From contig CP068257.2 of the NCBI GenBank assembly GCA_009914755.4, forward strand, positions 24,064,001 to 24,128,000: a stretch of 64,000 bases of DNA. Direction: 5' to 3'. The notes beneath the pieces are model-generated. The model was given only the letters and a program-made list of their open reading frames with translations. It did no database searches and was not told the origin of the DNA. This DNA is from the human T2T-CHM13v2.0 reference genome, Homo sapiens. This document shows, piece after piece, positions 3,664 through 48,333 of this stretch; position 1 is the stretch's first letter; every line of letters begins with the position of its first letter. A program made the translations under genes and the position numbers.

Positions 3664-5882
3664 ACAAGAAATATGGTCACTAATTTGATTTCATAGGCAT
3701 TTGTATAAACTAACTTAAAAAAAATTTACTGTATTTTGCTAAATTGAAAATTTTCAAATAAAATTTTAGTTAACAGTCATTTTTTTATATTAATTGAATA
3801 CCAATTTTGTGCCTAACACTGTTCTAAGGAATGGGGATACAGCAGTGAACAAAACAGGCCAAAAACCCCACAAAACTCTGCCTTATGGAGCTTACATTCT
3901 AGTAGAGAAAGGCAGAAAATAAACAGGTAATACTATATAGTATATCAGATAGGGCCATTATGGAGAAAAATAAAACAAATAAGAGAATATACAATACAAA
4001 GGGTAGGAGTAGAGATTCTAATTTCAAATAGGGTGGTCAGAAAGGATCTCACTAAGTGATTTTTGAGAAAGGCCTGAAGAGGGTGAGGAAGCAAGTTGTG
4101 CAAATAACCATGAGAAGAGCGTTCAGGCAGAGGGGAGAGAGCAAATTGAAAGATCCTGAGGCCAGGCAAGCCTAGAATATCTGAGGGATGTCAGCGGGAC
4201 CAGGGTGGCTGGAACAGAATGAGAGAAACAGAGGAGATGAGCGTACAAAAGTAGCGGTGGGGGCAGATTGTAAGGAGTCCCTTTTAGGCAGTCGTGAGGA
4301 GTCTGGCTTTGGTCTGAGTAAGATAGAAAGTCACTGGAGGGCTTTAAGCAGAGGAGTGGTGTCATTTTAATTTTTCAAAACTCACACTGGCTTCTCTGTT
4401 AAGAATAAACTATGAGATGACAAAAGGTGGAAGCAGGGAGATCAGTTAGCAAACTACCACACTAAGTGAGGCAAGAGAAAATGGTGGCTGGTGCCAAAGC
4501 AGTGTTGGAGATGCTGAGAAGTGACAGTGTTTTGGATATAATGTTTTAATAACTTGCTGATCTGTTGGATGTGGGCTGTGAGAGAAGCAGAGAAATCGAA
4601 GATGGCTTCAAGGTTATGAGAAGGATGGAATTACCATTTACGGAAGTGTGGAAGATTTTAAGAGGAGAGAGTTTGGGAGTGGTGATGGGAATAAGTGGAG
4701 AGGTTGGAGTGTTTGGAATTTTAATATTTGATATGCTTATTTGATTCCAAGTAGAGGTTATCAGTAACTGAATATTCAAAATCTAGAGTTTGGGGAAATA
4801 ACTGGAAATGGAATTGTAGGAGTCATTGGTACATGAAATATGGGTGAGCTCCCCAACGCCCTGTAGTTTGTGTGTACTTGTTTTATGACTGTCCTTCTTG
4901 TATGTACAGATCTGGCAGACCTAACTTTGGCTCTATGGGCGTAGAGAGAAGATGGATGACAAACTATCTGAGGCTATGGCAGCTGGGAGTGGAGAAGATA
5001 TACTGAAGCCATGGCTTCAGACAGTTTGTCATCTCCTAATTCCTTTGAAGAATCATCTGCCATTGACTTCCTGTTCCCAGATTTCTGGCTCAATCCTGGT
5101 CTCTCAGTCTCGTAAGATCCTAATACAAGTCTAGGTTGAAGTTCAGATTATCAAGAATTAGCAGTAATAAAGCCAGTGAGTTCAGAAGGGCAGGGTAGCT
5201 GGAAAGTGTTGCTACTTCCCACCCCTAACCTCCAGGTGATTGTGAGGACTTCTGCTTTTATTGAGTGACACGAAAAGTAATTGGAAGGTTTTGAGCAGAG
5301 GGGAGACATCATCTTACGTAAGTGGGAAGGGTGACATAGCTGCAGTGAGGGAGGTTATTCTTCTATCAGTATCTCTAGCAAATCAAGTAGTAATCTGGTG
5401 GGGAATAACTTCATTCCTAGACATATGCCCTCACATTCATTAAATCTGTGGCCTTCAAAATATGTTCAATAACGAAATGGATGACTGGAACACTAGTCAC
5501 CATGTAAAACTTTTTCCACGGAAAAATAAATAAATTTTGAGATTATAATAGTCAAGCTTTCAAAATATTAAATGTTAATATATTAAATTAAAAGTTAGTA
5601 AGTCTCTGGTTTGTGTATTCCACAAAAATCTTTAGTATACTAGCCACAAGCTACATTTACGTGCACAAGGCTTCACACTGATGTTTTGTTGCATGACTTT
5701 CTCTGTGAATATTGTCTGTAAATATAAGAAATTCAGTAAGAATTGTCTTTTTTTCTACCTAAGATATATGTTCATGTTCTTGCTGAGAAAATGTATGGAA
5801 GTAAAATTAACTAAAAGAGCATATATGTTCCAGATTGGAAGTGATAATGTAGTAAATATTGTCTTTTATATTCCACAAACAG

Positions 5883-5925
5883 GAAGAGTAATTCTTCATC
5901 TAAAGCCACGACAATGAGTGAAAAT
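5883..5925 (+). CDS. JAM2: JAM2 penultimate coding exon (43 nt): (Q)KSNSSSKATTMSEN
   Basis: acaaacag|GAAGAGTAATTCTTCATCTAAAGCCACGACAATGAGTGAAAAT|gtgagt, in frame with the last exon. Confidence 0.75.
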
Positions 5926-8182: not shown

Positions 8183-8215
8183 GATTTCAAGCACACAAAA
8201 TCCTTTATAATTTAA
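8183..8215 (+). CDS. JAM2: JAM2 last coding exon: DFKHTKSFII* (class II PDZ-binding C-terminus), stop TAA at 8213-8215
   Basis: ttttcctag|GATTTCAAGCACACAAAATCCTTTATAATTTAA. Confidence 0.8.
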   Translation, partial: DFKHTKSFII

Positions 8216-11125: not shown

Positions 11126-11399
11126 TTAGCCCCATATAACAGTGCAGGGAAAGAGTCATCCACCTATTGTTATTCATAAAACCCAGGAAACTACACCCTC
11201 TTACCTTCTGTAGCTACAAGGCTAGCTGCTGGTTAGCTGCTTAAGATTAGAATGTCATCATCTCTGGATGGCTGCCAACTTCTCAAATGCTGAGAAAAAT
11301 GCTCTGAAAATAAAAAGCAACAACTATTTATTGAACACTTTATATATGTCAGAGGTGGGGATGGATGGGGGTGAGGATGTAGAAAATCTCATTCATCTC

Positions 11400-11899: not shown

Positions 11900-12196
<297 letters not shown>

Positions 12197-13996
12197 GAGC
12201 CCAGTCCTTTTAAATTCTTGTGCGCTTCTCTGTCACACTTTCCTTTCACCCCCAGTTATCTCTGGCCCCTCATCGCCTTCCTGGTCTCACTGCCAGACAA
12301 AATACCTTTTTGTCATGCCTTTCCCCTAACCCAGTCTAAATATCACAGTGGGCCATTTCATTCTCTTCCACTCTCCTCTCATTCTCCGAAGATGCCCAAA
12401 TCTCTAATATTATTTTGAAAAATATTGAGGCTAACCAGGATGAATGCATTTAAATCCTATCACCACCACTGCCCCCTCCTATCTCTAAATCTCTCCATCT
12501 TTAGCCTCCCATTTATTCACTGACTACATCATTCATTGTCTTATTTGATTCTTCAGTCACTACTTTCATCCTTTTATCTCAGGCTTTCAATAGCATCTCA
12601 ACGTTTATCTCCGGGAACTTCCACCCTCCAGTACCCTCTCAGTCACAACGTCAATCTCTCCAGTTCCAAAGGCTCCTTTTCCCTCTAATCTCTTCTTCCC
12701 CCCACCCCATCCATCAATTTGCCCCATTTCTCTCGAACCATGTCAACTCCCTTCTCCTTTCCCCTGGCTAAACCCTTTCACTCTTCCTTTACCTAGTCTA
12801 TCACAAAATCTAAACTCCTCAGCCTGGAATTCAAGGTTTCCCACCCATCACAGACATATCCCATCATATTGCCACAGCCTACGTATTCAGCTATATGTTC
12901 TACTAACTTCTTCGGTTGCCTCATGTACCCATTAAACTGAGCTATGGTCATTTTATCTTAACCCATTTCCCCCTCCTCTATACACTTACCTATAACACCC
13001 TATCCACCTGGAATGTTAATTCTCCTAACCACAAGACTTGTATATTCTATCTACTTATTAAGAGACAGGTCAAATTCCACCCCCTCTAGGACAGCCTTCT
13101 CTCATTTCCCCTGCTGGAAACTCTTTCTTCTCTGAATTTCCGTAACCCTTGATTCACTTACTGGTTTCTACCCCATAATAGGAATGAACATGTTTGACAC
13201 CCCTACCAATCTGGAAGCATTTTGAGAAAAGAACCATGTTTTACACAACTTTATAAGACCCAAAGAATTTAACAGCATCTAACGTGGTTGGTATTTAATG
13301 TGATAAATGAATTTTTAAAAATCAAAGGAACACTTGTCAAAGAGCAAATTTAGTATTTAACTATAAAATTTCCCCATAAATTTAGTTCAAATATTAATAA
13401 ATGATTGTATTCTGAAATATGTAATTATAATAGTTATCTAATATGTGAAGTTACAAAGTTGTTCCATGAATGAAGGCTGGATGGAAACTATTTTTCTCAT
13501 ACCAGTCTTTTAGCAATTAGACATGAATTTCCACACAGTTCTTAAGCTCTTCAAATATTTTTCCAACTTTCAAATTTTAAAATTTAATTTTTCATCTTTT
13601 GTTTTCTCTTTTTGGAACACTTTTAGTGTTAACAGTTGGTTAAGAAATTCAAGGTAAACTAAAAGCTTTCATTTGTGATACTTTCAATATTTGTTTACTT
13701 TTCAATATATGCTAAGTTTTTACTTGACCAGGTTTGAAAAAATGTACTAATTAAGACAAACTGGAGTGTAAAATGTCTTTTTACTTTCCACCAAGAAAAT
13801 GCTCTCAAAACAAGTTAAGTGTGTGTCAACAAAGGACCTGTTTACCTTCTTTGAGATTGAAAGCAGGCTGTTTCAAAGCTCCATTTCATGATCCTTTATT
13901 TTCAACTTCAAGTGTGCTATTTATAAAGTTTCTTAAAGATGGTATAAAAATAGAGATTTACCAAGAGCTATAGTTGGAGTCCTAAAGTTGCTTATG

Positions 13997-21140: not shown

Positions 21141-23172
21141 TCCATGTGTTTGTTTGCACAAACGAATGAATGACCCACAAACAAGACTCCTTAGATATAG
21201 GGTACACCTAAGAATTCACTTCTTACTAGATAGGCTTTTAAAGACAGTTAAAATGATGCAAACAGCATCAATACTCTAATATAACACCACATTTGGACAG
21301 AAGACACTCAAAATTCCCTGACGAGTCCTGCACATCTGGTTACTTAACAGTATGATTTTTGGCAAATTCTAACTTTCAGCCTTGGTTTTCTCATATATAA
21401 AATTGGGGTAACATCTATAGGGTTGTTGTCAGAGTTTCATTACCATGTCTACAAAGCACAGAGTAACTTACTACATTTTAATCCCTTCACTATTTCTCCT
21501 CCTCAGTTTTGGCAATGGTAACACCTTTGTTAGTTACCTCGCCTCAAAAGTCAGTTTTCTTTTATTGTTCCCTCTTCTTCCTCTCCAGCAGCTCACCAAA
21601 ACCAGGCATCAGTGTTTCAATGTCTTGACTCTGTCACTTTTACATTACCACTGCTATAAAGTCAAGGTTCTCATCAACTAATGCTTAGGTTACATTTTGC
21701 TAACATGTCTGTCTTTGCTCTCTTCTCATTTCAATCCTTCCAATACCCTGGTTAAAATTATCCTCCTAATTCAGAGTAATCTTCCATCCCCACAGTCATG
21801 TTCAAAAAGCTGTAATTTCTCACAAATGCCTACCACATATCTTACTTGCTCAGTCTACAATCAAGGCCTTCCATAATCCCTCATTCTAACCCCATACCAT
21901 CCTTATACTCTTCATATACCCTATACTCCAGGGAAATAGAATTATACCATTCACCAAATATATTTTGTGCTTTCTAGCACAAACTAAGGCATTTTCATGC
22001 CTTAGTTCACACCATTCTTTCCTCCTAAAAGATACTCTCCTCTTACCCTCATTTATCTGTCCAACCTTCATACACTGATCTTTAAAACCTAGAGTAAACC
22101 CCTGGGTGTACAGGTCTACTGAAGGCCTCCTGTGGGTTTGAGAACTGTTTCATGCTATAAGGAAAATGATGTGAGTAAATTCTTCACGTTTTTTTCTTTA
22201 AACTGGGAAGATGATCCACAGTTGTCCATGAGATTCTCAAGAGGGATGAGTACCCAAACACTGCCTTCCAAGAAGCCTCTAAAATGCCTCTAGCTGGAAA
22301 GGAGTATTCTTTCCTATGAACTCCCCAAGCACCCAGCGTTTCCCTACCTTAGCACCTAACTCATTTTACCTTATATTGTATTTATTTGCTTAGAAGCTTT
22401 CTACTCCTATCGGACTTTAAGAATATTGTAAAAATGCCCTGTGGCCCATCACGGTTAATAGCCAAGTGCTTTACACACAGTAGACAACTATATGAAAGAA
22501 AATGGAACTATGAATTGGTGCGCCTCACTGTTCCTAAGATTTGGGTTTGGACCTGATGACAGCTAAGGTGGTCATTCCTTTCCAAAACTATGGTTCTACA
22601 ATTGTTTTTCTTGGACTTACATTATGTCATTTCAGAGTCTTTTGTCCTTTAATATACATTCTCAGAGATCTGTAACTATGGAAATAGCCTTTTAAAAAAA
22701 AGAGCTGTGTTTATACATTTCCCCCAAATTACAATGTCACAGAAAGGCCACTAAATTGAGGCTAAAATATACTTTGATAATATATTTTTCCCCAATTAGT
22801 TTTATGATCTTCGGCTAATCAATGTCTAAGGGAGTTACTTTTTTCAAACTTAGCTGCTAAATGATTTCCAAGACCCTATGTATTTCTATAAATTGATGTG
22901 GTTTATAATACATGACATGACAGTAAGAATGTATTTTAAACAGCAATAAATTTAGTAGGATTTTCCCTTGTAACTCATATAAAGATACAGTTTCTGACTT
23001 AAAAAAATCAAGATCCTTATCTTCTTTTTTGAGGGCACCTAATGAACCTCTATGTCAGAGATGAGCTCAGTGAAGGTCTAATACTTTCAAATACCAAGTC
23101 ATTTTTATTACCACCTTGAAACTTACATACTTTGAATATTTATATTTACACTGTAGTTATTTATTCACTTAC

Positions 23173-23336
23173 TGTCGCTTAGATTTGTATTCTCTAATCT
23201 TGTCCACAAAGAGTTTCTGTATAGGATCAAGTTCCTTATTAAATGCCACTGCTGTAACACCAATGTTCCTCCGCAAATGGACTGAGACGGCTGACCGAAT
23301 GACAGAGGAGAACCTGAAGAGCCTCTGAAGAATCAT
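23173..23336 (-). CDS. ATP5PF: ATP5PF first coding exon (ATG at + 23336-23334): MILQRLFRFSSVIRSAVSVHLRRNIGVTAVAFNKELDPIQKLFVDKIREYKSKR(Q). The exon extends 5' to + 23343
   Basis: - strand: ttttctgtaacag|aatcagcATGATTCTTCAGAGGCTC...AAATCTAAGCGACA|gtaagtg. The three coding exons sum to 327 nt, which is 108 aa plus the stop. Confidence 0.9.
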
Positions 23337-23994
23337 GCTGATTCTGTTACAGAAAACAAGCAGCAGAAACGTTAATATACTTATTATAAATCACCTCTAA
23401 ATATATCATGAGAATCAAATTCTACTAATTGCTACAGAATTACATCATATCAGATCTCAGTCTATACCTGACCACAGTTCCCTTCTCCTCCTTATTCCCC
23501 ATTGCAAGTTTTTTAGGTCTTAACCAAAAGGCTCTGGGATAATGGAACAGTTAGAAACTCAGGCCTGAAGCTTCATCAGGGTTAGAGCACAAAATGTGAG
23601 GTGAGGTATTTCTTCCCCCTTGAACTTAGTCATGGATCAGAGAAAACAGTAGAGGTAGACTGTTGCAACACTGTCCGCTCCTAACAGGAAAAGTACACTG
23701 GCCCCCAAACTAATGTACAAGGTTTCCCATACCTCAGCCGGGCATGACAACCTGAAAATGTGTACTTCACAGGCCCACAGAGGGAGAAACTGCTCTGCCT
23801 GTTACAAATGGATTCCAGCCATTTAAGAATACTGTAACAACTAAATCAAAGTCCAGAAGAACCAGCAAAGAAAAACAGCAGCCAGTCCAAATGAGCTGTG
23901 CATGACAGTGGGGAGGATCCGGCAGTCCAACTTTATCAGTGAAATAAATTGGTGAAGGAGATGGAAGTCTGAATTTTAAAAATAAGGACTTATG

Positions 23995-27098: not shown

Positions 27099-28081
27099 GT
27101 ATCTGGTCAAAGTTACACAGCAAAATCTAACTTAACACATATATGCAAAAAAAAAAATTGTGCAATTCAATGCCACTTTCCCTTCTGGCAAACTAAGGAC
27201 ATGCTTAACATTCAGCAATAGGTTCACCCGACATTTGCTTAGCCCTAGATACTGTGCAAAGTACTTCCATATATATCCTTTCCTTGTACCCTTACAGCAA
27301 TACTCTCAAAGAGTTAAAGTGTTCTTATCCCTGCTTTACAGATGATAAAACTGTATCTAAGAAAGATTAAGCTGCACGTATTCTCACAGTTAATTTGCTC
27401 TAAGTCTGACTGCATAGATGTTACTCCTTCTGCAACACGGGTAAAATCCACTTTCATTGTTTCAATTATCCACCATGTAAGTGCCTATGATTCCCCAATC
27501 GCATTTCTAATTTTAGTATTCATCCTGAGCCCCAAATCTATCCACAGCATTCAACAGTTCTCATCTCCCTTATAAGTCCTACGAACTCATCCAAAAAACG
27601 AACACATAATCCCATATCAAAACTTGTTCCTTCTCCTTTAATCCCTTTCATTTTTTTTCACTGATTAGTGAATGCATATTGTCCACTAAAACGCAGAAGA
27701 TAGTCATTACACAAATAGCTGTGAAATACCACCTGACATAAATTCTCTATTCCAGTACCATCGGGTGCCACGAGAGCATATGATAGCGTCTGACATGATC
27801 AGAAAGACTGGGGAAGGCAACAGTAAGAAAACACTAGTCTGAGCAGAGGCCTTGTTCTGGGTGGGAGCATGGTTCTATTTATAGTGATGACTGACCGGCC
27901 AAAGGTTAGTAGGTTCGCTGCCTCTTCAGTGCATATTCCTATGAACAATCCATAAAGTCGCCTAATGAAGTGTTAGCACCATCGTTTTTAGGTGGGATGC
28001 AAACTTTCAATATTATGACTAATTTTTTCCCTCTTAATGGTACACGTTCTGCCTAAGTAGCCTAGACGCTCCCGTGCGCCC

Positions 28082-28089
28082 GGGGCGGG
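28082..28089 (+). promoter_or_regulatory. Sp1 GC box GGGGCGGG. A second, reverse-oriented box (ccgcccc) is at 28484-28490
   Basis: motif match in the CpG island. Confidence 0.5.
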
Positions 28090-28467
28090 TAGGCCTGGCC
28101 GAAAATCTCTCCCGCGCGCCTGACCTTGGGTTGCCCCAGCCAGGCTGCGGGCCCGAGACCCCCGGGCCTCCCTGCCCCCCGCGCCGCCCCGATTTGCCCT
28201 CAGAGAGGGTATCGATCTTATTTCTGGGTCTACGGCAAACTCCAAGGTCTACAAACGTAGAGGTCAGCTGTGACCCCGGGCCAGGCCGTGAAGGTCCCCA
28301 GGACACAGAGCTGCTCTCTCCTCCTAGTAAAGGTGAGAGGCAGCCCAGGCCTCGTGAAAAAACCCAGAACTGGAGTCCCAAAAGGCCACGCTGATCTAGC
28401 TACCCTCCCAGTCACCTTGCACTCAGTCCCGAGCTGCCAAAGCCTCCGCCGCCACCACCTCCGCTCT

Positions 28468-28475
28468 ACTTCCGG
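28468..28475 (-). promoter_or_regulatory. ETS/GABP site CCGGAAGT (written on the - strand; + strand ACTTCCGG)
   Basis: Perfect match to the high-affinity GABP/ETS core-plus-flank CCGGAAGT. Confidence 0.6.
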
Positions 28476-28529
28476 CCCTGGCTCCGCCCCCACACGCCTA
28501 CCCGCCATCGCAATGCATTATGGGCCGCC

Positions 28530-28634
28530 GTTTCAGTCGGTCGACGCTCACCGGACAGGAAGCGTCTCGGAGACAGTCTGCGACCGGACGGGTCTAGGTG
28601 AGACAGAAGCCAAACAGGAGGAGGAAGTGGAGGG
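28530..28634 (+). other. GABPA: Putative GABPA non-coding exon 1 (5' UTR). Candidate donors are GTGAGA at 28599 or GTAAGT at 28635. The TSS is not determinable from sequence
   Basis: The first coding exon (35137) has an AG acceptor 26 nt before the ATG, so an upstream non-coding exon is needed. The only CpG-island promoter is here. The GTAAGT lies on the + strand among the ETS motifs. Confidence 0.3.
28556..28563 (+). promoter_or_regulatory. ETS-core site CAGGAAGC
   Basis: GGAA core with a purine-rich flank. Confidence 0.4.
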
Positions 28635-28647
28635 TAAGTGCTTCCGG
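28622..28647. promoter_or_regulatory. Inverted pair of ETS sites AGGAAGTG ... CTTCCGG, with a GTAAGT splice-donor consensus between them
   Basis: gAGGAAGTGgagggtaagtgCTTCCGGg at 28621-28648. Confidence 0.5.
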
Positions 28648-28728
28648 GTCCCCTGGCACAGCCTCCGCCATCTTTTCTTCGCCTAATTTGACCCGTTCTT
28701 TTTCCCCTCCTTGAAACCTTGCTCTGTA

Positions 28729-28737
28729 CGCATGCGC
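28729..28737. promoter_or_regulatory. NRF-1-like palindrome CGCATGCGC (tacGCATGCGCtc)
   Basis: Matches the core of the NRF-1 consensus YGCGCAYGCGCR, a motif typical of nuclear-encoded mitochondrial gene promoters. Confidence 0.5.
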
Positions 28738-31700
28738 TCTTTGAGTGGCCTTTCCCCTAGTTCAAGCTCCCCTCCGAGTCAGCGTCCTGTTCGTTAGGGT
28801 TATCGAAGTGTATAAAGGTGCAGGGAAAGTGAGACTGTGTAAAACAAAGCGGATTGGGGCGTTGTGCTTCCTTGTACCTCGTGAGCCTCCGTTGCCTTGG
28901 GCGGTCGTTTTGCGCACCCTGCCGGGAGTTGTAGTCCTGGACCCGAAGGTGCCTGGGAGGCGGGAGGGGGGTTGGGGCTTCTCAGCGCCGATTCCGCGGG
29001 AAGGGCCCTGGGACCTCACACTTCTAGTCGCGGGAGCTGCAGGTCTTACCCGGAGAGACGCTGCACGTGGAGCCCTCGCCGCTGCCGTTCTCAGCCGGCT
29101 CTGGAGTGCGGGCGGGGGCGACAGGGCCGATTCCGGAGTGGGTGAGTGCGGCCGCCGGGGAGGAGGGGAGCGCGGGCCCTCGCGGGCCGGCCTCGTTCCG
29201 GGGCCTTTTCCCCCACAAGGGCCCCCCCGCGGCCGCCTCTGTGTTTTGTTTCCGCTGGTCCCCGGCGCTGTGACTCCCATTTCCGTTCGTGGAGACTTGA
29301 GGGAGCCGGGTGGGGAGGGGCGGGAGAGGCTGTGCGGGGAGCGAAGGGGAGGGGCGGGGGGCGAGCGGCCTGGAGCCCGGGGGGACCGGGCACCGCCGGG
29401 ACCCGTGCCGGACGGGTCGCCTGTCGCCGCTCCCTCCTTTCCGCGTCCCCTCCTCGCCCGTCCGCACTCCTCAGCAGTCTCAGCCTGCTCAGCTGGGATG
29501 TGGTCCTGACGCCCCCGAGATTTTAAGAGCAAAATGCAGACCCTGTCTCATCGCGGGACTCAGCGATTCACTCATTTCAAATCCGCTCTCTTTATAGAAC
29601 AACACACACCAGAATCATTTATCAGCGTATATGGTAGCCATCTGGGTTTGTTTTTTTGTTTTTAAGCAAGGAAGTAAACCAAGGAGATAACAATGGGTTG
29701 TCTACTTGGAAATTTTTTTGTGTACTAGAAGACACGCTGTATGTGCGTGTTTGGATTTAGGGACCCCAGTTTGATCAGGTTAGCGGACCGAGAGGACAAT
29801 GCCTAATATTGCATTGCAAGATGATTAGAAATTTAGAAATAAAATTCATTTCATAAGTAGTTTCCACTAATAGCAGTAGGTCTGACTCGTGAGAAGAGCA
29901 AAGATTTAGCAGGATTCACTTGAGCGAATTGTAGAACGAGGCGGTGATAACATTCTTCGGTAGTGTTATCTTGAACTTCAGAAGAAACCGCTCAACTCTT
30001 TAGCAACTGCTTGAGGGACTAGCCTGTCTCTCAGGGTTCCATCCAGGCTTTCCAAGCTTCTTTATTTTTAGACATACAGTGACGCTGAGTGGACTTCAAG
30101 TCAATTTTACCTGAATTGTGTATACAAGAGCATCTGTCATGAGGCATGTATAGTAATGAAGTAATTAAATCATGAGCTAGATGTTAGGTTGAAGCAAATC
30201 ATCAGACCGAGTACTAAATTAAAACTGTTGACTTTAGCCTTCCCTCAACTCTTTATATATAAAACTCCAAACCTACAGAAGAATTGGGGAAAAAATCATG
30301 CAGTGAACACGCAGATACCCTTCACCTGAGGGTCCCAACTGTTAATCTTTCACTGTATGTGCTTTCTCTTTTTATATTACATAGATATGTATGCTTTGCT
30401 TTTTCTTAACTGCTACCTTTATTTTTGAAAATAAAAATGTCTTTTAATTTCCTCAGACACAGAAAAGCATTTGATAACTTAGGAAAATGTGCAGTTAATC
30501 TCGCAGGTACCCCCACACTCCACTTATAATATATTGGGAACAAAATGTTCTAAGCTCTGTAATAATGCTCTCCAATGAAGGACAATTCTCAAATTTATCT
30601 GTAGTTTCAAAAGGGAATGTTACACCTATCTGTATTTTAAAAGACACTAGCCGTTCCCAGAATTTTTCGTTAAATTCAAGTTTAGTTTGTATCCCATCTT
30701 GTGAAACATTCCGAACCCCAGGTTGGATTTAATCCAGCAGAACCAGAGTGTCAAAGTATATGAAATTGTTCTGTGCAGTTCTGGCGGGGGCAGCCCTTAG
30801 ACGGAGAAACTGCAAGTAATTTTCTCTCAGTTTTCCTAAGTATTGACATAGAAGCCTGAGGAATTGGTTTCAGAAAAAGAGATAAGACTCACTCAAAAAC
30901 TGATATGAAAGATTTGGACTATTTCTCAAATCTCTGTTTTGCTTCTCTGGACTAAGCATAGAGAACCAGGAGAGAAAGAAAGATTTAAGAGACTGAGTAA
31001 TATTTTTTGACAGATCATTTAAGAAACTGAGTAATTTTTTTTTTCTCCAAAAGGGCATGGGTTTTTGTTTTGTTTTGTTTTTTCTCTATTTGGCACTTTC
31101 TAGGGATTGGTCTATAAATTTTTTGAAAGATCATAGGATAAATTTCTTTGTAGCAACTTCCTATTTTAGTGTTTATGTTAGGGGAGCCCCAGGTGTCCCT
31201 GCTGATACGCCATTAGGGCCACTTCTCAGCCTCTGGCTACATCATAATGCTTTTTTTTCTATCTTGCCAAAGTTTCCAGAAAATTTATGTTTTCTAATTT
31301 TAAAAAAATTGGTTGTGGAGATGGGAGTGGACCTCTTTATAAGCCCTGAAAATAAGTGATTTTTTTTAAGTGCTATTCTGCTATAAACCTGATTCTCACT
31401 TTTTTCTGTAGACAACAGTTTTTTATAATATATCTATTTTGTGTGGACATTATTTCCTTTTAACCAATACTGAAATTCCATAGTGTATACTTTCTCCACA
31501 TTTTCTTTGATTAATACTTTCTTAAAATAGACACTTGGATTGGCACCAGCTGTCACCAATAAAGCTGCCCTGAACATTGTCAATCAATCCTGTTAACCAA
31601 TTTGAGAATTTTTCTGGAATGCTTAGTTAGGGATGAAATTGCTGGGTTATAGGTATGAGTATGCTTGATATACTTTTCTCCAGAATGTCTACACCTGTGT

Positions 31701-31790: not shown

Positions 31791-33184
31791 CCCTGCCCCC
31801 AACACACACATGGTATAAAGTGGTAGTTTCTTGTTTTAAATTGAACTTTTGAATGATTTGAATTTGGGCATTTCTTTGTATCCTGAGTTATTTTGGTTTC
31901 CCGTTATGTGAATATCCTTTTCCTATGCTTTAACTACTTTTCTAATTTGTCCCTTTTTTTGGTTATCAAATTCCAGGCCATTGTCTATTCCATCGTCACT
32001 TTTGGGTATTGGAAACATCTTTCCATTCTGTAGCCTGTCTGTTGAACATAAATCTTGATTTTTATGTAATCAGATTTTTCTCCTTACGGTTATGTTCTTG
32101 GAATTTTATTTAAGAAATCTTTTTCTATCCTGAGACCACAAAAATGTCCCCACCATTTTCTTCTGTTTCATAGTTTTGCCTTGTATGTTTAATCCTTTAA
32201 GGCATGTGTAGTTCATTTTATATGGTGTGAAATAGTTCTTATTCATTTATTCAACACATATTGGTGGAGTGCCTGCTGAAGGTAGTACTCTTCAGAGTAC
32301 TTTGTATATATTTGTGAACACATATTCTTGCCCTGGAAGCTTATGTTGTCCTTCAAGGTAGATCCCTACTCGGTTTCCACCTGTTTTCTTCAGCCCTCAG
32401 GATGAATTCCACAATTTTACACATAGCACCAGTTAAGGAATAGGCTTTATTGGAGAAAAGGAAGGCTTATTAGACCAGCATCAGCAAGAAAAAAAAAAAC
32501 CAAAAACAGAGGGTCTTCATTTCTTCATCATCCCCAAAAAAGCCTGCTGGAGCCTGCGCATTCTGCTAGATATGCACGTGAACAGAATCTGCGCAGTCGG
32601 CTAGATGTGCTTGTGAACGGAGCCTGCGCAGTCTGCTCCATATGCATGCGTCCATCCCAGTGGAGAACCTTACCCTTTTATTGTTCGTCCTTAAAGGGCA
32701 AGCCTGAGAGCAACCTTAATTACGTGGGAAAAATTAGATCATTTTGTATCAGGCAGTCTAGATTTGGGTGCCAGCTATTTGTCAGAAAACCAGCTACCCC
32801 ATAGTTGGAGATATTGAGAACTTAGGAGAGTTATAGCCCTTTCTAAAGTGGGAAGGGAGACTCAGTTTCTTAATGCTAGTGTAACAAATTATGCAAATTT
32901 AGTGGCTTAAAAACACCACCTGTTTATTATCTTACAGTTTTGGAGTCAGAAATATGAAGTAGGTCTCTGGGCTAAAATGAGGTGTTGCCAGTGCTGTTTT
33001 TCTAGAGCCTTCGAGGGAGAATCCGTTCCTTGTCTAGCTTTCAGAAGCTACCTGCATTCCTTGGCTCAAAGCTCCTTTCCTCCATCTTCAAAGCCAGTCA
33101 CAGCTAACCGGCAGATCTTCACATTGAATCACTCTGGCTCTCTCTTCCAATTTCCTCTTCTACTTTTAAGGACCTTCTACTTTT

Positions 33185-35013: not shown

Positions 35014-35162
35014 TAAAGACTACTTCCCCCTCTTCTGCTTGGCGTTTGCTTTTTATTTGGATTGGGTCTCTACTTCTTGTGTGTCATTTCGTTTATGTGG
35101 ATAGTTTTAAAATATCTTAAAAAGTCACTCTTGCAGGACTGATCCTTTGAAATACTCCAGCC

Positions 35163-35239
35163 ATGACTAAAAGAGAAGCAGAGGAGCTGATAGAAATTGA
35201 GATTGATGGAACAGAGAAAGCAGAGTGCACAGAAGAAAG
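35163..35239 (+). CDS. GABPA: GABPA exon 2 coding part (exon 35137-35239; ATG at 35163): MTKREAEELIEIEIDGTEKAECTEE(S)
   Basis: ttgcag|gactgatcctttgaaatactccagccATGACTAAAAGAGAAGCA...GAAGAAAG|gttggt. The total GABPA CDS across the nine coding exons is 1365 nt (454 aa plus stop). Confidence 0.9.
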
Positions 35240-45797: not shown

Positions 45798-48333
45798 GTA
45801 ATAAAATGCATAATTCTATATTGGGTAGAATAATAGGAATTAAGCTTGACATAGAAGACACTAGGGTAAGTTATAATCTATTTTACATGTAGAGTTATTA
45901 GGATGAATGTTGATTTTCTGTATCTCTCTTTTAATTGTAACGCACATTTAAGCTCATGTGGTGGACAAATTCTGTCCTGCGTGCAGGAAATACAAAGAAG
46001 TCTAAAAAATTTCTGCTCTTAGGGTGTTGAGAGTGTAGTTGAAGAGAGAGAAGATAGATGAAAAGAGATAATTGCCATAAAAGGTAACATGTTTTTAAAC
46101 TGCCAGTAACTCTTGTAGAAGTATGCTATTGGAATCTCAAAGAGATCATAGTTGCCCTGAGGGAAAGCTGAAAAGAGTTTATTATAAATAAGATACCATT
46201 GGGCAGAGAAAGACATTTAAGACAGGAAATGTTATGTGCAAAGCTTAGACCTGGGGGTATGCATGAGTAGTGAGAAAATGGAGTGGTTAAGGAGTTACTC
46301 TGTAGCATTACAGAACTGTTTTTGATTGATGAAAATGATAATTGAAAAATGAATATGGTGGCAATATATGGCATAAGTTGGAACAGGTAGAGACTAAGTG
46401 AAGGGAAAACAGGAGCATATTATTATAGTTGTGACTGGATGATAATGTCTACATTAGCCCAGACTCCAGATGATTTCTTTGGGAGTAGCAAGGAAAAAGT
46501 GGATGAAAACAGTGATAGGACTGAGCAGATTGACAGATTTTATGAGGGTAGAGAGGGAAGATACAAGTATTGATCTAACTTCTCAAGCTTCATCTTGGTG
46601 ACTAAAACAGTAATAATCTTGATAAAAATTGGTTCCATCATCATTACATATTTAGTGAACACTACCGTACACCAGGCACCATGTTAAATGCTGGGCTTAA
46701 TTAAGATGGTGCACTATGAAGAGCATGCTTTCAAAAGCCCAGTTGGGGAAGTAGAGAAGTCTGGTATAGGAAATGTTTTTTTCAAGAGAAGGTGGATAGC
46801 ACTTGATTTTGATGTGGAAGTTTATATTCAGCTGGAGGTTAGCCAGAAAATGGTTTCAGTTATATAAGATTTGGGCTGGAGACAAAGATGTTATATGAGA
46901 CTCATTCCCACTGAATTTATATTTGAAGCTATAAAAGTCTACGTAGTCCCTGATGGAAAGCGAGAAATGGAAAAGAACACACAACTAAAGGCATATACAC
47001 TTGACCCTGTAAACATTTAGGGTTGGAGAAAAGGGAGACAAGAAATAACTGAAGAGACAGAAAGAAAGTAATAACTTATATGTATAGTGTCACTGAAATT
47101 GAGGGGAGAGTTTGGATGGTCAAGACTCTCAGATGCTGCTGAGAAAGTCAAAGAATGCTGACTGATATCTATTAAATTTGATGATCAGAGGATTATTCTT
47201 AAATTTAGACAGAAGTAACTAGAGTTGGCGAGACAAAACAGAATTATAAGAAATAGATATCTTAGAAATGGGGGCAGATGAGGAAGAATGCTGGGGTAAC
47301 AAATAAATAATACTGATCTTCCAAGAGTTGGCGGGGACCTGAGTGTATTTGTAAATGAAACAGTATTGTCGGGTTTTTGTCCTTTTTTTATTTTTTATTT
47401 TTAGAGACAAGGTTGTACCTGGGGAGCAGGGCTGATGACAGAAAGGCTGTATTGTAGAACCACTGTTTTCCCTAGGACATTTTTTTTCTTTCTTTAAACC
47501 AAACCTAAAAGATACACAGTAAATGAGAGAGCTTACCCATGGAACTGAAAGAGAGCTATGGAACCAGACAGCTAATGTAGAATTTCAGTCTGTCCCTCCG
47601 CTGCCCAGTACTGTAGCCACTAATCACACGTCAGCACTTGAAGTGTCTCTGGTCAAAATTAAGATGGGTTGTAAATGTAAAAATACCCATTAAAAGAAAA
47701 AGTATAAAATCTTTTCTAATTTTTTATATTAATTACCAGTTGAAATAACATTTGGAACATTAAGTTAAAATAAATTCATTATTAAGATGTATTTGACCAA
47801 CTTTTTAAATGTAACTATTAGAAAATTTAAAATTACATAATGGTCTGCATTGTATTTCTGTTGGACAGCCCTGATCTTGATAATTGTAGCCTTCAGTTCT
47901 GGATGTTCTTACTGCATTATTTTGATAAATACCTGTGTTCTTTTTGCTGGAACTCCTGTTGAATCTCTTGAGTTGATCTGCTGCATCTTTTTTCTTGTTT
48001 ATTTTTCATCTTACCTATCTGCACTACTTTCTGCCAGATTTTCTTGTGTTTTTAATATAACCTATCTGATTTTTAATTTACAAGGGCTCTTCATTTTTGT
48101 TTGTTCCTTTCTGTAGCATTCTGATCTTATATTGCCAATATCGTGTTTTCTCCTACTTCTCTGAGTATATTGATTATATATTTTTTTTTAACTTTTAAAA
48201 AGCTTTACCGTGGTATATCTGTTTCTTGTGGATTCTGTTTTTCTTGTGGTTTTTGTTTGTGTTGTTTTTAACCTTTCCCAAGTATCTAATTATTTTTGCC
48301 CATCTTTTCATATTTAAGAATTAATCACTTTAG

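What the first reader, a model, noticed from the sequence alone, without database searches (positions are those of the whole stretch)
28050..29530. Head-to-head CpG-island promoter shared by ATP5PF (-) and GABPA (+), carrying GABP-type ETS motifs on the promoter of the GABP alpha gene itself
The first coding exons of ATP5PF (ATG at 23336, - strand) and GABPA (ATG at 35163, + strand) diverge from a single GC-rich island of about 1.5 kb, the only promoter-like sequence between them. The island carries a perfect CCGGAAGT at 28468-28475 (on the - strand), further GGAA-core sites at 28556, 28622 and 28641, two Sp1 GC boxes, and a GCGCATGCGC-like NRF-1 palindrome at 28729-28737. GABPA encodes the DNA-binding subunit of GABP (NRF-2), a known activator of nuclear-encoded oxidative-phosphorylation genes. 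ATP5PF encodes ATP synthase coupling factor 6. The arrangement therefore wires a mitochondrial ATP-synthase subunit and its own regulator to one autoregulatory-capable promoter. I recall this being described for the mouse and human locus, so it is interesting biology but not novel.
Basis: partly seen in the sequence, partly recalled or inferred. Interest (0 to 1): 0.5.

Follow-up and report, generated by a model that had tools for sequence, protein, structure and literature searches.

The report
Known shared ATP5PF–GABPA CpG-island promoter
This is the already-described CpG-island promoter shared head-to-head by the ATP synthase subunit gene ATP5PF and GABPA, the gene for the transcription factor that binds it; the sequence features are real and deeply conserved, but the biology is already published.

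Summary
Window 28050-29530 is the only true CpG island in the 64 kb (GC 0.655, CpG o/e 0.77). It lies between ATP5PF (- strand, ATG 23336) and GABPA (+ strand, ATG 35163). Every cited motif is present within 1 bp of the stated position.

Four ETS cores sit in a 361-bp core. That is about 11-fold more than dinucleotide shuffles give (P~0.0005). All four are invariant in 7 eutherians, and ETS1 and ETS4 are exact in marsupials.

The interpretation (a shared, GABP-autoregulated promoter) is supported by literature read here. This includes human GABPA ChIP-seq that lists the ATP5J promoter.

It is already known (Chinenov 2000; Patton 2006; Carninci 2006, all read second-hand).

Refinements:
- The island holds two conserved modules, about 28400-28740 and about 28920-29340.
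- ATP5PF has at least three alternative first-exon donors (28416, 28501, 28552). Two of these exons overlap the presumed GABPA exon-1a region.
- GC boxes are not enriched beyond island composition.
- The NRF-1 site is imperfect, and its occupancy was not verified.

The most conserved piece is a pair of TTTCCG elements 31 bp apart (29242-29287), invariant in 11 mammals. It remains unexplained.

The parts
28050..29530 (.). CpG island, the only one in the window. It contains both promoter modules.
   Evidence: GC 0.655, CpG o/e 0.77, 123 CpG. Conserved at 77-82% over 1.2-2.3 kb in six eutherians. The other CpG-rich windows fall on Alu elements, apart from one borderline window at 32501.
23172..23343 (-). 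ATP5PF exon 2. This is the first coding exon, with its ATG at 23336.
   Evidence: 55/55 identical to human F6 in PDB 8h9g_L. Matches Pfam PF05511. Acceptor and donor read directly from the sequence.
35137..35239 (+). GABPA first coding exon, with its ATG at 35163.
   Evidence: Translates to MTKREAEELIEIEIDGTEKAECTEE. Downstream exons match Pfam GABP-alpha, SAM_PNT and Ets, and PDB 1awc_A. Exon boundaries read.
28416..28475 (-). Proximal ATP5PF non-coding exon 1. The donor is CAAG|GTGACT with last exon base 28416. The 5' end was not measured and is drawn up to the ETS1 site.
   Evidence: The N-terminal extension LWQLGTQCK of mouse isoform P0047 maps to 28442-28416. The donor GTCACCTTGCA(C) is invariant in 7 eutherians and kept in possum. 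GC skew is -0.47 here.
28468..28475 (-). ETS1: a perfect CCGGAAGT (GABP-type) site.
   Evidence: Only copy in the 64 kb. It lies in an invariant 16-bp run, 28465-28480, in 7 eutherians. Exact in possum and Tasmanian devil.
28484..28489 (-). GC box (GGGCGG), Sp1-type.
   Evidence: Present. Conserved in most eutherians and in possum, but changed in murids. The motif class is not enriched over island composition.
28509..28526 (-). ZNF143 (Staf) binding site. The - strand reads GGCCCATAATGCATTGCG, a 16/18 match to my recalled consensus YWCCCRNAATGCAYYGCG. It overlaps the upstream ATG (28518) of the MHCDGG-extended ATP5PF isoform.
   Evidence: The pattern CCCANAATGCAYYGCG occurred 0 times in 2000 shuffles. 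It is mostly conserved in eutherians, and its core TGCATTATGG is kept in possum. PMC3936768 uses the human ATP5J promoter 'containing an SBS consensus motif' as a ZNF143 ChIP-qPCR locus.
28501..28581 (-). Alternative ATP5PF first-exon segment. The donor is GG|GTAGGC with last exon base 28501. It is read through from at least 28581 in a human-identical (100%, source 'merc') protein.
   Evidence: P0001 residues ADCLRDASCPVSVDRLKRRPIMHCDGG map at 100% to 28581-28501. Primate MHCDGG isoforms map to 28518-28501.
28552..28733 (-). Region homologous to a third ATP5PF first exon annotated in ground squirrel and bat. The donor is CCG|GTGAGC with last exon base 28552.
   Evidence: The P0022 and P0008 N-terminal extensions map to 28733/28704-28552 and 28684-28553. 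The donor was also predicted independently.
28555..28564 (+). ETS2: ACAGGAAGCG.
   Evidence: Lies in an invariant 18-bp run, 28547-28564. The GGAAG core is kept in possum.
28595..28639 (+). Two candidate GABPA exon-1a splice donors: TAG|GTGAGA (last exon base 28597) and AGG|GTAAGT (last exon base 28633). Inferred from sequence, not transcript-verified.
   Evidence: Donor scan. Both donors are invariant in 7 eutherians. GC skew turns positive from about 28500.
28620..28629 (+). ETS3: GAGGAAGTGG (PEA3/GABP-type AGGAAGTG).
   Evidence: Lies in an invariant 17-bp run, 28616-28632. In possum it is replaced by GGAAACGGAACGGAAAG.
28638..28648 (-). ETS4: CCCGGAAGCAC. It is inverted relative to ETS3, with the cores 19 bp apart.
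   Evidence: Lies in an invariant 18-bp run, 28634-28651. A 16-bp stretch is identical in both marsupials. A platypus BLAST match covers about 28622-28653.
28665..28674 (-). YY1-type site. The - strand reads AAGATGGCGG.
   Evidence: P=0.0025 against shuffles. Invariant in 7 eutherians amid drifting flanks. Present in both marsupials.
28727..28738 (.). NRF-1-like palindrome TACGCATGCGCT (10/12 of YGCGCAYGCGCR).
   Evidence: CGCATGCG has P=0.001 against shuffles. TACGCATGCG is invariant in 7 eutherians with poorly conserved flanks. A 15-bp stretch is identical in possum. Occupancy was not verified.
28924..28935 (-). ACTACAnnTCCC motif (ZNF143/THAP11 class). The - strand reads ACTACAACTCCC.
   Evidence: P=0.0005 against shuffles. 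It is an invariant 12-bp run. Present in both marsupials, and in platypus with one change. The motif class is linked to bidirectional promoters in PMC3082894.
29139..29147 (+). Candidate GABPA exon-1b splice donor TGG|GTGAGT (last exon base 29141). Inferred from sequence.
   Evidence: GGTGAGT is invariant in eutherians and GGGTGAG is kept in possum.
29237..29307 (.). The most conserved block of the island. It carries two TTTCCG elements, TGTTTTGTTTCCGCT (29242-29256) and ATTTCCGTT (29279-29287), 31 bp apart. Function unassigned.
   Evidence: It forms invariant runs of 34 and 36 bp in 7 eutherians. The two sub-elements are invariant in all 11 mammals, including platypus and echidna, with identical 31-bp spacing. 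No Rfam match.

Best explanation
The region is the TATA-less CpG-island promoter complex shared head-to-head by ATP5PF (- strand) and GABPA (+ strand).

It has two conserved modules.

Module A (about 28400-28740) is the core bidirectional promoter.
- ATP5PF's proximal non-coding exon 1 leaves leftwards from next to a perfect CCGGAAGT site.
- GABPA's first non-coding exon most likely leaves rightwards, starting about 60-100 bp away.
- Four ETS sites lie between and just inside the two units, in the orientations - + + -.
- With them are a GC box, a ZNF143 site, a YY1 site and an NRF-1-like palindrome.

Module B (about 28920-29340) carries an ACTACA/ZNF143-type motif, a second conserved + strand donor and a deeply conserved TTTCCG pair. 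It most likely supplies the second promoter in each direction.

Proposed mechanism. GABP (alpha2beta2) binds the ETS sites and, together with ZNF143, YY1, Sp1 and probably NRF-1, drives initiation in both directions. The product of one gene (GABP alpha) therefore feeds back on its own promoter and co-regulates an OXPHOS subunit gene.

What is shown here:
- gene identities;
- the island;
- motif positions, enrichment and conservation;
- exon-1 donors, taken from annotated isoforms.

What is taken from the literature:
- GABP occupancy;
- ZNF143 occupancy;
- autoregulation;
- the two-promoters-per-direction CAGE picture.

What is inferred:
- the exact TSS positions;
- the GABPA exon 1a/1b boundaries;
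- which ETS site is bound;
- the role of module B.
For: Gene identities.

Island, and its uniqueness in the window.

Motif enrichment against dinucleotide shuffles.

Phylogenetic footprints.
- All four ETS sites, the YY1 site and the NRF-1 core are invariant in 7 eutherians, while the linker 28675-28725 and 28800-28870 drifts.
- The series CGGAAA x2 / ACTACA / CGCATGCG / AAGATGGCGG / CCGGAAG / CCGGAAG is collinear in both marsupials.

Synteny. GABPA(-)/ATP5PF(+)/JAM2(-) is called in Apodemus, Mus, Pteropus, platypus and echidna. The other loci show a subset of these genes.

Exon-1 donors from annotated isoforms.

GC skew changes sign at about 28500-28560, with a second minimum at about 28800.

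Literature.
- Autoregulation and the shared promoter: PMC2713978, PMC2077898, PMC3121118 Table 3.
- Human GABPA ChIP-seq listing ATP5J: PMC3964217.
- ZNF143 ChIP-qPCR at the ATP5J promoter SBS: PMC3936768.
- Two overlapping promoters in each direction, by CAGE: PMC2706245 citing Carninci 2006.
- Autoregulatory effects of GABPA/GABPB1 siRNA in macaque fibroblasts: PMC12037758.
Against: - No TSS data could be consulted. The GABPA exon 1a/1b assignments rest only on conserved donor consensus and GC skew.
- The primary functional papers (Chinenov 2000, Patton 2006, Carninci 2006) are not held in the library and were read only through citing papers.
- The functional dissection was done on the mouse promoter.
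- The ChIP-seq table names the ATP5J promoter. It does not resolve which ETS site is bound, and ATP5J is not in the table's 'high-signal' column.
- ETS sites are also recognised by ELK, ETS1 and ELF factors.
- ETS2-4 sit inside a 150-bp stretch that is 91-99% conserved and transcribed on at least the - strand. Their invariance therefore cannot be ascribed to factor binding alone.
- GC boxes are no more frequent than composition predicts.
- The NRF-1 site is imperfect, and no occupancy data were found.
Confidence: 0.88

Rival explanations
1. The arrangement is two (or four) independent, interleaved unidirectional promoters that merely overlap. On this reading the two genes are not co-regulated through common elements, and the feedback on GABPA is incidental.
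For: - Two separable conservation modules and two GC-skew minima.
- ATP5PF first exons that start to the right of the presumed GABPA exon 1a.
- PMC2077898 states that it is generally unclear whether divergent pairs use one bidirectional promoter or two overlapping ones (abstract).
Against: - The exon-1 donors of the two genes lie only 181-217 bp apart (28416 against 28597/28633), with all four ETS sites, the SBS and the GC box between or immediately around them.
- Citing papers report shared, validated GABP and Sp1 sites for Gabpa/Atp5j (PMC3121118 Table 3).
- GABP and ZNF143 sites are each reported as sufficient to drive bidirectional initiation (PMC3082894).
Confidence: 0.08
2. The ETS sites are occupied mainly by other ETS factors (ELK1/4, ETS1, ELF1). 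On this reading the promoter is an ordinary housekeeping ETS promoter, and there is no meaningful GABP autoregulation.
For: - CCGGAAGT and CAGGAAGC are consensus sites for several ETS subfamilies (established knowledge of ETS redundancy).
- PMC3964217 reports coordinated ETS1 and GABPA binding at bidirectional promoters (abstract).
- ATP5J is not among the 'high-signal' GABPA promoters.
Against: - GABPA ChIP-seq does list the ATP5J promoter.
- Self-regulation is stated in two independent papers citing Patton 2006.
- siRNA experiments in macaque fibroblasts show autoregulatory effects.
- Clusters of several ETS sites suit the GABP alpha2beta2 tetramer (established knowledge).
Confidence: 0.03
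3. Conservation reflects RNA-level or coding constraints of the overlapping first exons (5' UTRs, upstream ORFs, splice sites). On this reading the motif matches are incidental.
For: - 28500-28650 is uniformly 91-99% conserved and is transcribed, with alternative ATP5PF exons and ORF extensions running through the SBS, ETS2 and YY1 sites.
- ETS3 and ETS4 flank a conserved splice donor.
Against: - ETS1, YY1 and the NRF-1 core are discrete 10-16 bp footprints within drifting sequence.
- The N-terminal extensions differ between species and are interrupted by stop codons in human frames, so no protein constraint is evident.
- No Rfam family matches.
- ChIP data show factor occupancy.
Confidence: 0.01

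Closest known systems
Mouse Gabpa/Atp5j (ATP synthase coupling factor 6) bidirectional promoter (Chinenov, Coombs & Martin, Gene 2000; Patton et al., Gene 2006)
   Same: It is the orthologous locus. The mouse sequence aligns to window 28114-29381 at 78% identity. ETS1-4, the YY1 site and the NRF-1 core are identical. Citing papers report validated GABP and Sp1 sites and self-regulation.
   Different: This window is the human-type sequence. The murid GC box next to ETS1 is altered (CTCCGCCTA), and the murid NRF-1 site reads GCATGCGTA. The primary papers could not be read here, so an element-by-element comparison with their maps was not possible.
GABP-driven bidirectional promoters in general (Collins et al. 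2007, PMC2077898)
   Same: It is a CpG-island promoter with divergent genes and clustered GABP consensus sites near the midpoint. It has no conserved TATA box.
   Different: Here the regulated gene is GABPA itself, which closes a feedback loop. The two transcription units also overlap through alternative first exons instead of being separated by a clean intergenic spacer.
ZNF143/Staf-dependent bidirectional promoters (Anno et al. 2011, PMC3082894)
   Same: It contains an SBS (28509-28526) and an ACTACAnnTCCC motif (28924-28935). ZNF143 occupancy at the ATP5J promoter has been reported.
   Different: The two motif halves lie about 400 bp apart in separate modules and do not form one extended SBS. 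ZNF143 acts here alongside four ETS sites.
PREPL-C2ORF34 bidirectional promoter (NRF-2 plus YY1 cooperation, PMC2713978)
   Same: NRF-2/GABP and YY1 sites occur together in a short shared region.
   Different: It involves different genes and no autoregulatory loop. Cooperation between the GABP and YY1 sites has not been tested at this locus here.

Membership tests
CpG island (Gardiner-Garden & Frommer criteria) | Length >200 bp, GC >50%, CpG observed/expected >0.6 | tested here: met
   1481 bp, GC 0.655, o/e 0.77.
Bidirectional promoter (Trinklein et al. 2004 definition) | Two genes on opposite strands, arranged head-to-head | tested here: met
   ATP5PF lies on the - strand and GABPA on the + strand, diverging from the island. 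The arrangement is conserved to monotremes.
Bidirectional promoter (Trinklein et al. 2004 definition) | Transcription start sites less than 1 kb apart | tested here: inconclusive
   The exon-1 donors lie 181-217 bp apart (28416 against 28597/28633), and GC skew flips at about 28500-28560. No TSS data are available in these tools. CAGE evidence exists in the literature for mouse.
Bidirectional promoter (Trinklein et al. 2004 definition) | Shared cis-elements that drive both directions | not testable with these tools
   This needs reporter or genome-editing assays. Citing papers report it for mouse.
GABP (NRF-2) target promoter | Consensus (A/C)CGGAAGT-type sites, preferably two or more for the alpha2beta2 tetramer | tested here: met
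   There is one perfect CCGGAAGT and three further MGGAAGY cores within 180 bp: 4 observed against 0.35 expected, P=0.0005. All are invariant in 7 eutherians.
GABP (NRF-2) target promoter | In vivo occupancy by GABP alpha | not testable with these tools
   From the literature only. ATP5J is in the GABPA-bound promoter list from ChIP-seq in H1299 cells (PMC3964217).
Autoregulated transcription factor gene | The factor's level changes transcription of its own gene through its own sites | not testable with these tools
   Stated in PMC2713978 and PMC2077898, both citing Patton 2006. Autoregulatory effects of siRNA are reported in PMC12037758.
NRF-1 site | Palindrome YGCGCAYGCGCR | tested here: inconclusive
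   TACGCATGCGCT matches 10/12 positions. The CGCATGCG core is exact, improbable by chance (P=0.001) and conserved to marsupials. No occupancy data were found.
ZNF143/Staf binding site (SBS) | 18-bp consensus YWCCCRNAATGCAYYGCG | tested here: met
   16/18 positions match at 28509-28526 on the - strand (sequence). The pattern occurred 0 times in 2000 shuffles. ZNF143 ChIP-qPCR at the ATP5J promoter SBS is reported in PMC3936768.
YY1 site | AAGATGGCGGC / GCCAT core | tested here: met
   AAGATGGCGGA on the - strand matches 10/11 positions (28664-28674). P=0.0025. Invariant in eutherians and present in marsupials. Occupancy was not tested.
Sp1 GC boxes as a distinguishing feature | GGGCGG more frequent than composition predicts | tested here: not met
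   7 observed against 3.8 expected in the island (P=0.085). 1 observed against 0.58 expected in the core (P=0.46).

The most novel reading that the evidence does not exclude
The block at 29237-29307 carries two elements, TGTTTTGTTTCCGCT and ATTTCCGTT, held exactly 31 bp apart (about three helical turns). Both are invariant in 11 mammals, including monotremes. The block could be a distinct, so far undescribed control element of this locus. Candidates are the core of the distal promoter pair, or a switch that sets the balance between the proximal and distal start sites of GABPA and ATP5PF. It may be bound by a factor other than GABP, because CGGAAA(T/C) departs from the GABP optimum.
Probability: 0.25. 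Interest if true: 0.3.

Novelty: already known. Interest (0 to 1): 0.15.

Why it matters
The locus is a textbook-style example of a transcription factor gene wired to one of its own metabolic targets through a shared promoter. This couples GABP/NRF-2 dosage to ATP synthase subunit expression, on a chromosome (21) where dosage matters. That was established about 20 years ago, so confirming it adds no new biology.

The modest additions made here are useful for annotation and for designing mutagenesis, but they do not change understanding:
- a base-resolution, cross-mammal footprint map;
- evidence that alternative ATP5PF first exons overlap the GABPA side;
- a ZNF143 site that doubles as an upstream start codon;
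- an unexplained block conserved across all mammals sampled.

Tried and rejected
I worked around this through a homolog search and ten ortholog look-ups.

2. I tried to read Patton 2006 and Chinenov 2000 directly. Neither is held, so their content is cited only through other papers.

3. I tried to fix annotated TSS positions from hg38 gene extents that I remembered, by matching them to polyA signals at the convergent ATP5PF/JAM2 3' ends. No consistent offset emerged. The recalled numbers were discarded and are not used.

4. Rfam scan of 27500-30200 at E<=1 gave no match. A known structured RNA therefore does not explain the ultra-conserved block.

5. Supplements of the GABPA ChIP-seq paper PMC4839217 are not held.

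6. Searches for NRF-1 ChIP evidence at ATP5J and for a description of GABPA exon 1a/1b returned nothing relevant.

7. The TATAAA at 28811, CCAAT at 28853 and CTTCCT at 28867 were considered as promoter elements and rejected. They lie in the least conserved linker and are not conserved.

8. TTTCCG at 29438 was rejected as a candidate site, with 0% invariant columns.

9. The monotreme CGCATGCG clusters were tested for a regular tandem repeat. Only short, partial 26-27 bp repeats were found.

Full report
**Observation.**

The window carries ATP5PF on the - strand and GABPA on the + strand.

- The - strand ATG is at 23336. It opens an exon (23172-23336) that is 55/55 identical to human ATP synthase coupling factor 6 in PDB 8h9g_L and matches Pfam ATP-synt_F6. 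The remaining coding exons are at 18894-18757 and 18226-18185.
- The + strand ATG is at 35163 and begins MTKREAEELIEIEIDG.... Downstream exons match Pfam GABP-alpha, SAM_PNT and Ets. The ETS-domain exon is 60/60 identical to GABP alpha in PDB 1awc_A.

Between the two genes, 28050-29530 has GC 0.655 and CpG o/e 0.77, against 0.386 and 0.28 for the whole window. Of the other 200-bp windows that pass island thresholds, all but one borderline window (32501) coincide with Alu elements. The island is therefore the only promoter-like sequence between the genes.

The cited motifs are all present:
- ACTTCCGG at 28468-28475, the only CCGGAAGT in the 64 kb;
- AGGAAG at 28557 and 28622;
- CTTCCG at 28641;
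- CGCATGCGC at 28729-28737, an imperfect NRF-1 palindrome (TACGCATGCGCT).

There are seven GGGCGG hexamers in the island.

**Is it more than chance?**

I compared counts with 2000 dinucleotide-preserving shuffles. In the 361-bp core 28400-28760:

| Motif | Observed | Expected | P |
|---|---|---|---|
| MGGAAGY (ETS core) | 4 | 0.35 | 0.0005 |
| CCGGAAGT | 1 | 0.017 | 0.017 |
| CGCATGCG | 1 | 0.001 | 0.001 |
| CCGCCATCTT | 1 | 0.003 | 0.0025 |
| GGGCGG | 1 | 0.58 | 0.46 |

GGGCGG is also not enriched over the whole island (P=0.085). The GC boxes therefore add no statistical weight.

**Related sequences.**

A homolog search with ATP5PF, followed by contig look-ups, gave eleven orthologous loci from ten species. 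These cover six eutherians, two marsupials and two monotremes. The order GABPA / ATP5PF / JAM2 and the head-to-head orientation are called in Apodemus, Mus, Pteropus, platypus and echidna. The other loci show a subset of these genes.

The island aligns at 77-82% identity over 1.2-2.3 kb in eutherians. Conservation is not uniform. It peaks at 28400-28650 and at 28950-29340, separated by a drifting linker.

Within module A the following are invariant in all seven eutherian sequences, and several are discrete footprints within variable flanks:
- ETS1 (run 28465-28480)
- ETS2 (run 28547-28564)
- ETS3 (run 28616-28632)
- ETS4 (run 28634-28651)
- CCGCCATCTT (28665-28674)
- TACGCATGCG (28727-28736)

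Both marsupials keep the same elements in the same order and orientation with similar spacing: CGGAAA x2, ACTACAnnTCCC, CGCATGCG, AAGATGGCGG, CCGGAAG, CCGGAAG.

1. A ZNF143/Staf site on the - strand at 28509-28526 (GGCCCATAATGCATTGCG). It matches 16/18 of the consensus as I recall it, and occurred 0 times in 2000 shuffles. PMC3936768 uses the human ATP5J promoter 'containing an SBS consensus motif' as a ZNF143 ChIP-qPCR locus.
2. A YY1-type AAGATGGCGG at 28665-28674.
3. An ACTACAACTCCC motif at 28924-28935. This class is over-represented in bidirectional promoters and tied to ZNF143 (PMC3082894). It is conserved to marsupials, and to platypus with one change.

**Transcript anatomy.**

No transcript database was available. 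N-terminally extended ATP5PF isoforms returned by the homolog search locate the first exons instead.

- Mouse LWQLGTQCK maps to 28442-28416. This fixes the proximal exon-1 donor CAAG|GTGACT, with last exon base 28416.
- The primate MHCDGG extension starts at an ATG at 28518, inside the ZNF143 site, and ends at 28501.
- A human-identical protein (P0001, source 'merc') reads through from at least 28581.
- Ground-squirrel and bat isoforms map to 28733-28552.

ATP5PF therefore has at least three alternative first-exon donors. Two of these exons start to the right of the region where conserved + strand donors mark the presumed GABPA exon 1a (28597 and 28633). A further conserved + strand donor at 29141 marks a presumed exon 1b.

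GC skew is strongly negative at 28380-28560 and turns positive after about 28500-28560, with a second minimum near 28800. This fits two divergence points. [quoted passage not shown]

The GABPA first-exon assignments and all TSS positions remain inferences.

**Mechanism.**

The best-supported reading is the published one. GABP binds the clustered ETS sites of a TATA-less CpG-island promoter and, together with ZNF143, YY1, Sp1 and probably NRF-1, drives divergent initiation. GABP alpha therefore feeds back on its own gene and co-regulates an OXPHOS subunit gene.

Support read here:
- PMC2713978: NRF-2 binds the 5' intergenic region it shares with ATP5J on human chromosome 21 and auto-regulates.
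- PMC3121118, Table 3: validated GABPA and SP1 sites for Gabpa/Atp5j.
- PMC3964217, Supplemental Table 3: ATP5J is among 1,594 GABPA-bound promoters by ChIP-seq in H1299 cells.
- PMC12037758: GABPA/GABPB1 siRNA shows autoregulatory effects in macaque fibroblasts.

For NRF-1 I found no occupancy data.

**Rivals.**

- *Independent overlapping promoters.* This is partly true as a description, given the two modules and overlapping exons. But the exon-1 donors are only about 200 bp apart with all the elements between them, and shared sites are reported in the literature.
- *Occupancy mainly by other ETS factors.* This is possible in part, but it is contradicted by the ChIP and knock-down data.
- *Conservation driven by RNA or coding constraints.* This is plausible for the uniformly conserved 28500-28650 stretch. 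It does not fit the discrete ETS1, YY1 and NRF-1 footprints. The upstream ORFs differ between species and carry stop codons in human. Rfam finds nothing.

**Beyond the finding.**

The most conserved part of the island is not the CCGGAAGT module. It is 29237-29307.

- It forms invariant runs of 34 and 36 bp in eutherians.
- TGTTTTGTTTCCGCT (29242-29256) and ATTTCCGTT (29279-29287) are invariant in all 11 mammals.
- Their 31-bp spacing is identical in human, both marsupials and both monotremes.

CGGAAA(T/C) is not an optimal GABP site, so the binding factor and role are unknown. Its position fits the core of the distal promoter pair: about 100 bp 3' of the 29141 + strand donor, and about 190 bp upstream, in the - sense, of a - strand donor at 29050.

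**Verdict.**

Interest is low. The residual novelty is the uncharacterised pan-mammalian block.

Noticed in passing
window 29237-29307: This is the most conserved block of the island. TGTTTTGTTTCCGCT and ATTTCCGTT are invariant in 11 mammals, including platypus and echidna, and sit exactly 31 bp apart in every lineage checked. There is no Rfam match and no factor has been assigned.
   Followed up: partly
window 28501-28518 (- strand): The upstream ATG of the primate MHCDGG-extended ATP5PF isoform lies inside the ZNF143 binding site. The same 18 bp therefore serve as a factor site and as an alternative start codon with the first codons of the extension.
   Followed up: partly
L008 4165-4575 (platypus); L010 5640-6558 (echidna): Both monotremes carry a dense cluster of the NRF-1 core CGCATGCG on the GABPA side of the conserved block: 7 copies in platypus and 14 in echidna. 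The human island has a single imperfect site. Tandem Repeats Finder sees only short partial 26-27 bp repeats, so this is not a regular array.
   Followed up: partly
window 28992-29002: TTCCGCGGGAA is a palindromic, E2F-like element (TTCCCGCG on the - strand). It is largely invariant in eutherians (82% of columns).
   Followed up: no
window 11236-11316 (- strand) and 5881-5925 / 8183-8212 (+ strand): An alternative ATP5PF last exon (C-terminus ...EHFSQHLRSWQPSRDDDILILSS of human isoform P0021) lies about 7 kb beyond the canonical stop codon. The last JAM2 coding exons converge on it. The long ATP5PF isoform therefore probably overlaps the JAM2 3' UTR tail-to-tail.
   Followed up: partly
window 28811-28816: TATAAA occurs only in the human-type sequence, in the poorly conserved linker between the two modules. 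It is not a conserved TATA box.
   Followed up: yes
One lies only about 1 kb from the island edge. There are 31 Alu HSPs across the window.
   Followed up: partly
window 4001-5000, 12001-13000, 21501-22000, 46001-47500: These stretches show extreme GC skew in 500-bp windows (+0.39/+0.49, -0.30/-0.61, -0.44, and +0.24 to +0.42). They are probably simple or strand-biased repeats, but I did not examine them.
   Followed up: no
literature (PMC4102568): The GABPA/ATP5J promoter is among the top-20 cellular ChIP-seq peaks of the KSHV latency protein LANA in one of the two cell lines listed.
   Followed up: no
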